Of a stretch of 64,000 nt of DNA, positions 23,967 to 37,404 are shown piece after piece. The position numbers were made by a program, and so were the translations under genes. The stretch lies in NCBI RefSeq assembly GCF_009914755.1, contig NC_060939.1, one strand, 5' to 3'. Position 1 is the stretch's first letter; each line of letters starts with the position of its first letter. The notes beneath the pieces were generated by a model. It was given only the letters and a program-made list of their open reading frames with translations. It searched no databases and was not told the origin of the DNA. The stretch comes from the human T2T-CHM13v2.0 reference genome, Homo sapiens.

Positions 23967-26900
23967 CTTTTTTATTTTTATTTTATTATTTTTTAATTTT
24001 TTTATTATACTTTAAGTTCTAGGGTACATGTGCACAACATGCAGGTTTGTTACATATGTATACATGTGCCATGTTGGTGTGCTGCACCCATTAATTCGTC
24101 ATTCACATTACGCATATCTCCTAATGCTATCCCTGCCCCCTCCGCCCACCCCAAAACAGGCCCTGGTGTGTGATGTTCCCCTTCCTGTGTCCAAGTGTTC
24201 TCATTGTTCAATTCCCACCTATGAGTGAGAACATGCGGTGTTTGGTTTTTTGTTCTTGTGATAGTTTGCTGAGAATGATGGTTTCCAGTTTCATCCATGT
24301 CCCTACAAAGGACATGAACTCATCATTTTTTATGGCTGCATAGTATTCCATGGTGTATATGTGCCACATTTTCTTAATCCAGTCTATCATTGATGGACAT
24401 TTGGGTTGGTTCCAAGTCTTTGCTATTGTGAATAGTGCCTCAATAAACATACATGTGCATGTGTCTTTATAGCAGCATGATTTATAATCCTTTGGGTATA
24501 TACCCAGTAATGGGATGGCTAGGTCAAATGGTATTTCCAGTTCTAAATACCTGAGGAATCGCCACACTGTCTTCCACAATGGTTGAACTAGTTTACAGTC
24601 CAACCAACAATGTAAAAGTGTTCCTATTTCTCCACATCCTCTCCAGCATCTGTTGTTTCCTGACTTTTTAATGATTGCCATTCTAACTGGTGTGAGATGG
24701 TATCTCGTTGTGGTTTTGATTTGCATTTCTCTGATGGCCAATGATGATGAGCATTTTTTCATGTGTCTGTTGGCTGCATAAATGTCTTCTTTTGAGAAGC
24801 GTCTGTTCATATCCTTTGCCCACTTGTTGATGGGGTTGTTTTTTTCTTTTAAATTTGTTCGAGTTCTTTGTAGATTCTGGATATTAGCCCTTTGTCAGAT
24901 AAGTAAATTGCAAAAATTTTCTCCCAATCTGTATGTTGCCTGTTCACTCTGATGGTAGTTTCTTTTGCTGTGCAGAAGCCCTTTAGTTTAATTAGATCCC
25001 ATTTGTCAATGTTGGCTTTTGTTGCCATTGCTTTTGGTGTTTTAGAGATGAGTCCTTGCCCATGCCTATGTCCTGAATGGTATTGCCTAGGTTTTCTTCT
25101 AGGGTTTTTATGGTTTTAGGTCTAATGTTTAAGTCTTTAATCCATCTTGAATTAATTTTTGTATAAGGTGTAAGGAAGAGATCCAGTTTCAGCTTTCTAC
25201 ATATGGCTAGCCAGTTTTCCCAGCACCATTTGTTAAATAGGGAATCCTTTCCCCATTTCTTGTTTTTGTCAGGCTTGTCAAAGATCAGATGGTTGTAGAT
25301 GTGTGGTATTATTTCTGAGGGCTCTGTTCTGCTCCATTGATCTATATCTCTGTTTTGGTACCAGTACCATGCTGTTTTGGTTACTGCAACCTTGTAGTAT
25401 GGTTTGAAGTCAGGTAGGGTGATGCCTCCAGCTTTGTTCTTTTGGCTTAGGATTGACTTGGCAATGCGGGCTCTTTTTTGGTTCCATATCAACTTTAAAG
25501 TAGTTTTTTCCAATTCTGTGAAGAAAGTCACTGGTAGCTTGATGGGGATGGCATTGAATCTATAAATTACCTTGGGCAGTATGGCCATTTGACGATATTG
25601 ATTCTTCCTATCCATGAGCATGGAATGTTCTTCCATTTGTTTGTATCCTCTTTTATTTCATTGAGTGGTTTGTAGTTCTCCCTGAAGAGGTCCTTCACAT
25701 CCCTTGTAAGTTGGATTCCTAGGTATTTTATTCTCTTTGAAGCAATTGTGAATGGGAGTTCACTCATGATTTGGCTCTCTGTCTGTTATTGGTGCATAAG
25801 AATGCTTGTGATTTTTACACATTGATTTTGTATCCTGAGACTTTGCTGAAGTTGCTTATCAGCTTAAGGAGATTTTGGGCTGAGACAATGGGGTTTTCTA
25901 GATATACAATCATGTCATCTGCAAACAGGGACAATTTGACTTCCTCTTTTCCTAATTGAATACCCTTTATTTCTTTCTCCTGCCTGACTGCCCTGGCCAG
26001 AACTTCCAACACTATGTTGAATAGGAATGGTGAGAGAGGGCATCCCTGTCTGTGCCAGTTTTCAAAGGGAATGCTTCCAGTTTTTGCCCATTCAGTATGA
26101 TATTGGCTGTGGGTCTGTAATAGATAGCTCTTATTATTTCGAGATATGTCCCATCAATACCTAATTTATTGAGAGTTTTTAGCATCAAGGGTTGTTGAAT
26201 TTTGTCAAAGGCCTTTTCTGCATCTATTGAGATAATCACATGGTTTTTGTCTTTGGTTCTGTTTATATGCTGGATTACATTTATTGATTTGTGTATGTTG
26301 AACCAGCCTTGCATCCCAGGGATGAAGCCCACTTGATCATGGTGGACAAGCTTTTTGAGGTGCTGCTGGATTCGGTCTGCCAGTATTTTATTGAGGATTT
26401 TTGCATCGATGTTCATCAGGGATATTAGTCTAAAATTCTCTTTTTTGTGTGTGTCTCTGCCAGGCTTTGGTATCAGGATGATGCTGGCCTCATAAAATGA
26501 GTTAGGAAGGATTCCCTCTTTTTCTATTGATTGGAATAGTTTCAGAAGGAATGGTACCAGCTCCTCCTTTTACCTCTGGTAGAATTCGGCTGTGAATCTG
26601 TCTGGTCCTGGACTTTTTTTGGTTGGTAGGCTATTCATTATTGCCTCAATTTCAGAGACTGTTATTGGTCTATTCAGAGATTCAACTTCTTCCTGGTTTA
26701 GTCTTGGGAGGGTGTATGTGTCCAGGAATTTATCCATTTCTTCTAGATTTTCTAGTTTATTTGTGTAGAGGTGTTTATAGTATTCTCTGATGGTAGTTTG
26801 TATTTCTGTGGGATCGGTGGTGATATCCCCTTTATCATTTTTTATTGTGTCTATTTGATTCTTCTCTCTTTCTTCTTTATTAGTCTTGCTAGCAGTCTAT

Positions 26901-36300: not shown

Positions 36301-37404
36301 CCTTCAGTTCTGCTCTGATTTTAGTTATTTCTTGCCTTCTGCTAGCTTTTGAATGTGTTTGCTCTTGCTTTTCTAGTTCTTTTAACTGTGACGTTAGGGT
36401 GTCGATTTTGGATCTTTCCTGCTTTCTCTTGTGGGCATTTAGTGCTATAAATTTCCCTCCACACACCGCTTTGAATGTGTCCCAGAGATTCTGGTATGTT
36501 GTGTCTTTGTTCTCGTTGGTTTCAAAGAACATCTTTATTTCTGCCTTCATTTCGTGATGTACCCAGTAGTCATTCAGGAGCAGGTTGTTCAGTTTCCATG
36601 TAGTTGAGTGGTTTTCAGTGAGTTTCTTAGTCCTGAGTTCTAGTTTGATTGCACTGTGGTCTGAGAGACAGTTTGTTATAATTTCTGTTCTTTTACATTT
36701 GCTGAGGAGTGCTTTACTTCCAACTATGTGGTCAATTTTGGAATAGGTGTGGTGCTGAAAAAAATGTATATTCTGTTGATTTGGGGTGGAGAGTTCTGTA
36801 GATGTCTATTAGGTCTGCCTGCTGCAGAGCTGAGTTCATTTCCTGGGTATCCTTGTTAACTTTCTGTGTCGTTGATCTGTCTAACATTGACAGTGGGGTG
36901 TTAAAGTCTCCCATTATTAATGTGTGGGAGTCTAAGTCTCTTTGTAGGTCACTCAGGACTTGCTTTATGAATCTTGGTGCTCCTGTATTGGGTGCATATA
37001 TATTTAGGATAGTTAGCTCTTCTTGTTGAATTGATCCCTTTACCATTATGTAATGGCCTTCTTTGTCTCTTTTGATCTTTGCTGGTTTAAAGTCTGTTTT
37101 ATCAGAGACTAGGATTGCAACCCCTGCCTTTTTTTGTTTTCCATTTGCTTGGTAGATCTTCCTCCATCCCTTTATTTTGAGCCTATGTGTGTCTCTGCAC
37201 ATGAGATGGGTTTCCTGAATACAGCACACTGATGGGTCTTGACTCTTTATCCAATTTGCCAGTCTGTGTCTTTTAATTGGAGCATTTAGCCCACTGACAT
37301 TTAAAGTTAATATTGTTATGTGTGTATTTGGTCCTGTCATTATGATGTTAGCTGGTTATTTTGATCGTTAGTTGATGCAGTTTTCTTCCTAGCCTTGATG
37401 GTCT

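What the first reader, a model, noticed from the sequence alone, without database searches (positions are those of the whole stretch)
24820..36835. Interlocus gene conversion between two different-age L1s 9325 bp apart
L1-C and L1-D have different 5'UTR/ORF1 types and separate TSDs, so they inserted independently. Yet by eye 26817-27283 is identical to 36142-36608 (467 nt). They also share lesions an active parent could not carry: the same stop (GYKINV* at 25815 and 35140) and the same frameshift (IKKKERRIK* at 26851 and 36176). Shared non-consensus residues include [31 protein letters not shown] and ALQQAD. These variants are scattered over about 2.7 kb and interleaved with differences. Inference: repeated, patchy non-allelic conversion after insertion, at least partly from the younger L1-D into L1-C.
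Basis: partly seen in the sequence, partly recalled or inferred. Interest (0 to 1): 0.85.

Follow-up and report, generated by a model that had tools for sequence, protein, structure and literature searches.

The report
Gene conversion between two neighbouring L1s
Two old LINE-1 retrotransposon copies that landed separately 9.3 kb apart in an OTUD7A intron have since copied stretches of sequence between each other, a well-known repair process seen here in a clear but ordinary example.

Summary
C 26817-27283 and D 36142-36608 are identical over 467 nt, although the two L1s are only 93.5% alike overall. No permutation reached more than 203 nt. C and D reach at most 188 and 208 nt with any of 57 unlinked L1 copies. 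The shared stop and frameshift are real.

The lesions are not unique. Genome-wide, 125 copies carry the stop allele and 21 carry the frameshift allele.

Beside the identical run lies a zone, C 25402-26816, with 3.75% divergence against 7.25% and 5.8% in the flanks. There C and D share 7 rare-variant events per kb. The mean for 528 unlinked pairs is 0.083 and the maximum is 2. One double variant exists nowhere else in the genome.

Best reading: non-allelic gene conversion between two independently inserted, same-orientation L1s. At least two events of different age are needed. The net effect is younger, D-type sequence placed into the older C. Direction in the older zone is only probable.

The process is already known for Alu and L1 elements. 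This is a new instance of it, and interest is low to moderate.

The parts
23990..30127 (-). L1-C, a full-length older L1PA copy with broken ORF1 and ORF2. A-rich tail at about 23967-24010.
   Evidence: Self-BLAST, frames, ORF2p match to PDB 8uw3_A at E 1e-127, ends read.
23956..23966 (.). Target-site duplication of L1-C, left copy (GATTTGATTTC).
   Evidence: Exact 11-nt repeat with 30128-30138.
30128..30138 (.). Target-site duplication of L1-C, right copy.
33301..39481 (-). L1-D, a full-length younger L1PA copy. Its ORF1 frame is open and its ORF2 is broken.
   Evidence: Best unlinked genome matches are 97% against 94% for C in the same segment.
26817..27283 (-). Recent conversion tract in C, a 467-nt run identical to D.
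   Evidence: It holds no C-only variant, and dense C-only rare variants resume at 27294.
36142..36608 (-). Recent conversion tract in D.
25402..26816 (-). Older conversion zone in C. It has 53 differences in 1415 nt and 10 rare variants shared with D. An apparently unconverted hypervariable block lies at 26599-26660.
   Evidence: D ranks about 5th among the 40 scored of 5849 genome candidates for C 25969-26598.
34720..36141 (-). Older conversion zone in D.
   Evidence: Same calls as for C. Coordinates come from the alignment.
25815..25817 (-). Shared premature stop in ORF2 (after ...GYKINV), C copy. The D copy is at 35140-35142.
   Evidence: The allele occurs in 125 copies genome-wide against 11,104 copies with the open codon.
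26851..26885 (-). Shared frameshift allele (A/G run shorter by 1 nt, with an A>G change), C copy. The D copy is at 36176-36210.
   Evidence: The exact 35-mer occurs 21 times in the genome.
26350..26387 (-). 38-mer carrying the two LADRIQQHL variants, C copy. The D copy is at 35676-35713.
   Evidence: It has exactly 2 matches in the 3.1-Gb genome, namely C and D.

Best explanation
L1-C (older) and L1-D (younger) inserted independently in the same orientation, 9.3 kb apart, in an OTUD7A intron. Later a break or gap in one copy was repaired using the neighbouring copy as template. This is non-allelic (interlocus) gene conversion, and it happened at least twice.

1. An older event, or several, homogenised about 1.2-1.4 kb of ORF2 (C 25402-26816, probably skipping 26599-26660). 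Both copies have since accumulated about 1.5-2% private change each in that zone.
2. A recent event made 467 nt (26817-27283) identical.

The sequence type installed is the younger, D-like one, so the net flow is D into C. The stop and the frameshift are private lesions that one copy passed to the other.

What is shown: the tracts, their different ages, the regional sharing of rare variants, and the D-like age signature of the recent tract. What is inferred: the repair mechanism, the direction in the older zone, and the absolute dates.
For: Identity and run length:
- The 467-nt run is exact, and the permutation maximum is 203 nt.
- C and D reach at most 188 and 208 nt with any of 57 unlinked copies. 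This holds even though D is 96-97% identical to those copies and only 93.5% identical to C.

Independent insertion:
- The flanks are non-homologous and C has its own target-site duplication.

Segment divergence:
- 66 differences in 910 nt (28200-27291).
- 0 in 467 nt (the identical run).
- 53 in 1415 nt (26816-25402).
- 71 in 1232 nt (25401-24170).
- Zone against 5' flank, p = 3e-4. Zone against 3' flank, p = 0.019.
- P(0 differences in 467 nt at the zone's rate) = 9e-9.

Rare-variant sharing:
- C-D share 7 events in 25791-26800. Among 528 pairs of 33 unlinked copies the mean is 0.083 and the maximum is 2. In the control region C-D share 1 event.
- The LADRIQQHL 38-mer occurs only in C and D genome-wide.
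- The 25460-25519 60-mer is exact over its full length only in C and D.

Private load of each copy:
- C's rare-variant load, C-only plus shared, falls from 62 per 1500 nt in the 5' control to 35 per 1400 nt in the zone (p = 0.019). No C-only variant lies in the recent tract.
- D's load is 24 per 1500 nt against 30 per 1400 nt (p = 0.34).
- Book-keeping fits D into C: shared 0.7% plus D-only 1.5% equals D's 2.2% in the control region.

Best unlinked matches for 630-nt segments:
- Tract 1076 bits (98%), D flank 1063 bits (97%), C flank 972 bits (94%).
- D is among the top 6 of the 40 scored of 5849 candidates for C's zone. It is absent from the top 40 for both native C segments.

Literature (passages read):
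- Conversion between dispersed repeats is enriched within 10 kb (PMC6598467; PMC8230782).
- Young-into-old replacements outnumber the reverse, 40 to 12, for Alu (PMC8230782).
Against: - A BIC-type segmentation of pairwise differences alone separates only the 460-nt zero-difference segment. It does not separate the older zone from the 3' end.
- By plain identity the older zone is not exceptional. Four unlinked copies match C 25969-26598 slightly better than D does (1031-1016 bits against 1013).
- D's best unlinked match falls from 1063 bits in its 5' flank to 1035 bits in the zone. D's private load also rises slightly there. Some C-into-D transfer therefore cannot be excluded.
- If the older event also covered the recent tract, the direction of the last event cannot be read from variant loads.
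- Several shared rare variants recur elsewhere: the stop in 125 copies, the frameshift in 21, and the 26430-26489 60-mer in 3 further full-length exact copies plus one partial.
- The panels are 57 copies picked by similarity, and only 40 of 1647 and 40 of 2329 candidates were scored.
- No panel of C's own subfamily could be fetched.
- No orthologues or second human assembly were available.
Confidence: 0.85

Rival explanations
1. Many small, bidirectional conversion patches (three or more events) produced the mosaic. The alternative is one old long tract plus one recent tract.
For: The 62-nt block 26599-26660 has 12 differing columns and looks unconverted, with homogenised stretches on both sides. 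Two stretches of about 190 nt, 25402-25590 and 25783-25973, each hold a single difference. Two rare shared variants 3 nt apart (27499, 27502) sit inside otherwise native C sequence. D's load rises slightly in the zone.
Against: Identical runs of 129 and 127 nt are within what a uniform 3.9% rate gives (my calculation). Segmentation finds no further break. C-only and D-only events in the zone number 30 and 21, compatible with equal later decay (p = 0.26). The 26599-26660 block is also polymorphic among the panel copies.
Confidence: 0.3
2. The 467-nt identity is an artefact of assembly or polishing in T2T-CHM13, with reads from one L1 overwriting the other.
For: Nothing positive was found. It could not be tested because no reads or second assembly are available here.
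Against: The tract is far shorter than the long reads used for such assemblies. Copy-specific variants lie within 1-11 nt of both edges. The older zone shows the same kind of sharing together with later private mutations, which no artefact would produce. The argument from read length is inference.
Confidence: 0.04
3. C and D descend from one defective source element, or C is a sibling of D. The shared lesions and variants would then be inherited and not exchanged.
For: Both carry the same stop and the same frameshift.
Against: Sharing is confined to 25402-27290. Outside it C carries about 4% private rare variants against 1.6% for D, and the two share 2 rare variants in 1500 nt. The 5' third differs by 12.5%. 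Best unlinked matches are 94% for C's flank against 97% for D's flank.
Confidence: 0.02
4. A third, younger L1 elsewhere in the genome donated the tract to both copies.
For: The tract's best unlinked matches (98%) are a little higher than for any other segment of D. Some tract variants (27135 G, 27061 G, 27142 G) occur in panel 1 but in 0 of 29 copies of panel 2.
Against: No panel copy carries more than one or two of these variants together. The enrichment in panel 1 is what selection for similarity to the tract would produce. Two events with the same ends would be needed. No 100% or 99% unlinked match appears among the 40 scored hits.
Confidence: 0.03
5. Chance: parallel mutation plus a local mutational cold spot.
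For: The stop, the frameshift and some other variants are recurrent in the family.
Against: Per-copy frequencies are about 1% or less: 125 against 11,104 for the stop. None of 528 unlinked pairs shares more than 2 rare events, against 7 for C-D. P(0 differences in 467 nt) = 9e-9.
Confidence: 0.01

Closest known systems
Non-allelic gene conversion between neighbouring Alu elements (Aleshin & Zhi 2010, as summarised in PMC6598467 and PMC8230782; passages read)
   Same: Independently inserted dispersed repeats less than 10 kb apart become locally homogenised. Non-diagnostic (private) mutations are shared. A younger element more often overwrites an older one. Some loci are hit more than once.
   Different: Here the partners are 6-kb L1s, so the tracts (0.47 kb and about 1.2-1.4 kb) cover only part of each element. 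Two age layers can be read in one pair. No outgroup confirmation is available here.
L1 gene conversion (Burton et al. [quoted passage not shown] 2000, repair of a break in a chromosomal LINE by conversion from endogenous LINEs). Both were seen only as reference-list or in-text citations in PMC5640379 and PMC1920257.
   Same: L1 copies serve as repair templates for each other. An intrachromosomal L1 conversion (locus NCLI34, a 377-bp segment) is described in PMC1920257 (passage read).
   Different: Those cases are mouse loci or cell-culture assays, or a single human locus with a distant donor. This is a tandem-oriented human pair with a donor 9.3 kb away. I did not read the original papers.
Interlocus gene conversion between duplicated genes and segmental duplications (Mansai et al. 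2011, cited in PMC6598467)
   Same: The rate depends on distance and identity. The tract lengths, in the hundreds of bp to about 1-2 kb (typical length recalled, not taken from a call), match those seen here.
   Different: The paralogues here arose by two separate retrotranspositions and not by duplication. Starting identity was therefore only about 93%.

Membership tests
Non-allelic (interlocus) gene conversion between dispersed repeats | The two sequences are paralogous copies at different loci with independent origin. | tested here: met
   The flanks are not homologous. C has its own 11-nt target-site duplication. The 5' third differs by 12.5%. D's target-site duplication was not found.
Non-allelic (interlocus) gene conversion between dispersed repeats | A discrete tract of raised identity is bounded by lower-identity flanks, beyond chance. 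| tested here: met
   The identical run is 467 nt and the permutation maximum is 203 nt. P = 9e-9 against the adjacent zone. The edge at 27284-27294 is sharp.
Non-allelic (interlocus) gene conversion between dispersed repeats | Private, non-family variants are shared inside the tract but not outside it. | tested here: met
   C-D share 7 events in the zone against 1 in the control region. The null from 528 unlinked pairs has mean 0.083 and maximum 2. One 38-mer is unique to C and D in the genome.
Non-allelic (interlocus) gene conversion between dispersed repeats | Transfer is non-reciprocal, so the donor is unchanged and the acceptor overwritten. | tested here: inconclusive
   C's private load falls (62 per 1500 nt to 35 per 1400 nt, with no C-only variant in the recent tract). 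D's does not change significantly. Without the ancestral states this remains indirect.
Non-allelic (interlocus) gene conversion between dispersed repeats | The pre-conversion state is visible at orthologous loci in outgroup species or other haplotypes. | not testable with these tools
   Only this one human assembly could be searched.
Non-allelic (interlocus) gene conversion between dispersed repeats | Distance and identity fall in the range where conversion is frequent (less than 10 kb; about 89-100% identity). | tested here: met
   The copies are 9325 nt apart, in the same orientation, and 93.5% identical. The ranges come from PMC6598467 and PMC8230782.
Full-length LINE-1 (L1PA) elements | ORF1 and ORF2 (endonuclease and reverse transcriptase) in order, an A-rich 3' tail, and a target-site duplication. 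| tested here: met
   ORF2 pieces match human L1 ORF2p structures (8uw3_A, E 1e-127). ORF1 and ORF2 frames are listed. Tails are read. A target-site duplication was found for C only. Subfamily names (L1PA3-6) were not tested because no consensus library is available here.

The most novel reading that the evidence does not exclude
The 467-nt identical tract arose on the human lineage within the last few million years and may still be polymorphic. It would then give two same-orientation L1s a perfect-identity substrate for recurrent 9.3-kb deletion or duplication by non-allelic homologous recombination, inside an intron of OTUD7A. OTUD7A is a candidate gene of the 15q13.3 microdeletion region (recalled, not from a call). 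The pair would be a live example in which conversion keeps renewing the recombination substrate between old repeats.
Probability: 0.15. Interest if true: 0.5.

Novelty: new member of a known kind. Interest (0 to 1): 0.3.

Why it matters
The pair shows, at single-base resolution and with genome-wide controls, that old L1 copies a few kb apart keep exchanging sequence long after insertion. Three practical consequences follow:

- Ages and subfamily calls based on divergence are wrong for converted segments. C looks 94% 'old' in one segment and 98% 'young' in the next.
- Disabling lesions can be copied between elements, so a shared lesion does not prove a shared parent.
- Conversion creates stretches of perfect identity that could seed deletions or duplications between the two copies.

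None of this is new in principle.

Tried and rejected
- Tandem duplication of an L1-plus-flank unit: rejected. Only the L1 bodies align, and the flanks share only Alus.
- PRDM9-type 13-mer (motif recalled): 6 matches in the window against 1.45 expected, none inside either tract. The nearest are at 31083 and 33447. This gave no mechanistic lead.
- The third L1 in the window (5292-10828, 86% to C) as an outgroup: it showed that shared states of moderate panel frequency are mostly old-type states. It is too diverged to give direction.
- Haplotypes at 106 polymorphic sites: D's pattern in the zone is typical of its own sub-group, for example L005 and L009. States such as G at 25818 therefore do not show transfer from C into D.
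- Best-unlinked-hit scores to give direction in the older zone: not discriminating. C zone scored 1031 bits, D zone 1035 and native C 3' segment 1012.
Genome-wide counts were used instead.
- get_proteins does not take PDB chain ids.
- Exact-phrase searches for L1-L1 gene conversion found a single paper, which only cites Burton 1991. That library lacks most subscription journals, so this says little about what is in print.
- Supplements of the papers were not opened.
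Full report
**What is there.** The window holds two full-length L1 elements on the minus strand: L1-C (23990-30127) and L1-D (33301-39481). A third, older L1 lies on the plus strand (5292-10828), and a still older fragment lies at 17143-20333.

C and D align end to end at offsets of 9312-9359 nt. Their flanks share nothing but Alus, and C has an exact 11-nt target-site duplication. I found no exact duplication of 7 nt or more for D. ORF2 pieces match solved human L1 ORF2p structures (8uw3_A, E 1e-127).

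According to the hub's annotation, both elements lie in an intron of OTUD7A and in the gene's orientation.

**The observation.** C 26817-27283 equals D 36142-36608 base for base over 467 nt. The gapped alignment has 6140 aligned columns, 402 substitutions and 21 indel events, giving 93.5% identity. In 20,000 permutations the longest identical run was 203 nt.

The two differences that bound the run are CpG transitions. The same stop after ...GYKINV and the same frameshift ending ...IKKKERRIK are present in both copies.

**Comparison with the rest of the genome.** The whole assembly could be searched. I fetched two panels:
- Panel 1: 28 copies best matching the tract region (40 of 1647 candidates were scored).
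- Panel 2: 29 copies best matching D's adjacent 5' flank (40 of 2329 candidates were scored).

A third panel, for C's flank, could not be cut out.

Best unlinked matches for 630-nt segments were:

| Segment | Bits | Identity |
|---|---|---|
| Tract (26661-27290) | 1076 | 98% |
| D 5' flank | 1063 | 97% |
| C 5' flank | 972 | 94% |
| C 25969-26598 | 1031 | 96% |
| D equivalent of that segment | 1035 | 96% |
| C 24772-25401 | 1012 | 96% |

In the panel alignment C is 0.93 identical to the panels in its 5' flank but 0.965-0.973 in the tract. D stays at 0.96-0.97 in both. The tract therefore carries the younger, D-like sequence type embedded in an older C.

C and D never share more than 188 and 208 identical nt with any panel copy. 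Long runs do occur among young unlinked copies: 6 of 1596 panel pairs exceed 467 nt, up to 1456 nt. Run length alone is therefore meaningful only given the 93.5% background.

**Are the lesions and residues family-wide?** They are not family-wide, but they recur.
- The stop allele 23-mer occurs 125 times in the genome, against 11,104 copies with the open codon. That is about 1%.
- The frameshift 35-mer occurs 21 times.
- VCGGK (27135 G) is in 11 of 57 panel copies, and DRLLAR (26894 T, a CpG site) in 14 of 57.
- The LADRIQQHL double variant is in 0-1 of 57 panel copies, and its 38-mer has exactly two genome matches, C and D.
- QPLML is in 1 of 57 and TLKLIW in 0 of 28.
- The TLKLIW 60-mer is exact over full length only in C and D, with two further copies matching over 56 of 60 nt.
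- The 26430-26489 60-mer, a CA-run variant, is also exact in three other full-length copies and one partial copy.
- No panel copy combines the tract's variants.

**A second, older layer.** Classifying every variable column against the panels gives the counts below. Rare means the state is carried by at most 2 panel copies. These are alignment columns.

| Region | C-only rare | D-only rare | Shared rare |
|---|---|---|---|
| 5' control, 27291-28790 | 60 | 22 | 2 |
| Recent tract, 27290-26817 | 0 | 0 | 2 |
| Zone, 25401-26800 | 25 | 20 | 10 |

Pairwise differences are 66 in 910 nt (28200-27291), 0 in 467 nt, 53 in 1415 nt (26816-25402) and 71 in 1232 nt (25401-24170). The zone differs from the 5' flank at p = 3e-4 and from the 3' flank at p = 0.019.

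The strongest test is an empirical null. Among 528 pairs of 33 unlinked panel copies, rare shared events in 25791-26800 average 0.083, with a maximum of 2. Of the 57 copies, 24 were left out, either because they did not span the region or because they were poorly aligned (L006, L013, L027, L039). C-D have 7 events there and 1 in the control region.

D also ranks about 5th among the 40 scored of 5849 candidates for C 25969-26598. It is absent from the top 40 for both native C segments.

Against this, a BIC-type segmentation of pairwise differences separates only the zero-difference segment. Four unlinked copies also match C's zone slightly better than D does.

**How many events, and which way.** One event cannot give both 0 differences in 467 nt and 4% next door (P = 9e-9). 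At least two events of different age are required.

The block 26599-26660 has 12 differing columns in 62 nt and is polymorphic in the panels. It looks unconverted.

Otherwise the interleaved differences are compatible with later decay. C-only and D-only events number 30 and 21 (p = 0.26). Runs of 127-129 nt are unremarkable at 3.9% (my calculation).

Direction is addressed by three observations:
- C's private load drops in the zone (62 per 1500 nt to 35 per 1400 nt, p = 0.019), while D's does not change significantly (24 to 30, p = 0.34).
- Shared 0.7% plus D-only 1.5% reproduces D's 2.2% elsewhere. This fits D into C when D was about a third of its present age.
- Transfer from C into D over the whole zone would predict about 57 C-type private variants, where 35 are seen.

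Some reverse transfer cannot be excluded, because D's best unlinked match falls from 1063 to 1035 bits. If the old event once covered the recent tract, the direction of the last event is not readable. What can be said is that the sequence there is D-type.

**Dating.** This rests on recalled mutation rates of 0.5-1.0e-9 per site per year. Zero differences in 467 nt puts the recent event under about 3-6 million years at 95%. The older zone's 1.5-2% per lineage puts that event several-fold earlier.

**Mechanism.** Homology-directed repair of a break in one L1 using the neighbouring same-orientation copy, resolved without crossover, fits the anatomy. This is inferred, not shown. No PRDM9-type motif lies in the tracts (motif recalled).

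**Known or new.** Conversion between neighbouring dispersed repeats within about 10 kb, with a bias from younger to older elements and with repeat hits at some loci, is described for Alu (PMC6598467 and PMC8230782, passages read). L1 conversion has been discussed since 1991 and was shown in cell culture in 2000. I saw those only as citations in PMC5640379 and PMC1920257. PMC1920257 itself describes an intrachromosomal L1 conversion.

This pair is therefore a clean new instance of a known process. Its particular merit is two dated layers in one pair.

**Open points.** No outgroup or second human haplotype could be examined. An assembly or polishing artefact for the recent tract is judged unlikely only by argument. 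Subfamily names were not assigned.

Noticed in passing
window 37405-38529 (-): L1-D keeps an open ORF1 frame (374 aa from stop to stop, containing a full-length ORF1-like protein). Its ORF2 is broken in several places. C's ORF1 is broken.
   Followed up: no
window 33220-33325 and 39470-39560: No exact target-site duplication of 7 nt or more was found for L1-D, and its A-tail is short and interrupted. Mismatched or shorter duplications were not searched for.
   Followed up: partly
window 26599-26660 / 35925-35985: A 62-nt block of ORF2 where C and D each carry clustered private changes (12 differing columns). The 57 panel copies are themselves polymorphic there. It is a local hypervariable spot sitting between two homogenised stretches.
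   Followed up: partly
window 27496-27502 / 36816-36822: Two shared variants 3 nt apart (the ALQQAD codons; 1 of 57 and 3 of 57 panel copies) lie inside otherwise native C sequence. The nearest C-only variant is at 27489 and the nearest D-only variant at 27519. This may be a micro-tract or a minor sub-lineage state.
   Followed up: no
L022 (G000:C10:86236858-86240488) and L025 (G000:C6:19637734-19641364): Two L1 copies on different chromosomes share a 1456-nt identical run and the same pattern at all 106 polymorphic sites. They are either very young siblings or part of an interchromosomal duplication.
   Followed up: no
window 5292-10828 (+) and 17143-20333: A third near-full-length L1 lies in the opposite orientation (86% to C). 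An older L1 fragment (74% to C) lies in the same intron region.
   Followed up: partly
window 23990-39481: Both full-length L1s lie in the sense orientation of OTUD7A (minus strand, per the hub's annotation) within one intron.
   Followed up: no
G000:C1:30.29-30.43 Mb: Several hits from independent searches fall in one chr1 interval: panel copies L032 and L049, a copy with the same frameshift allele, and copies with the open codon. This suggests a local cluster of related L1s.
   Followed up: no
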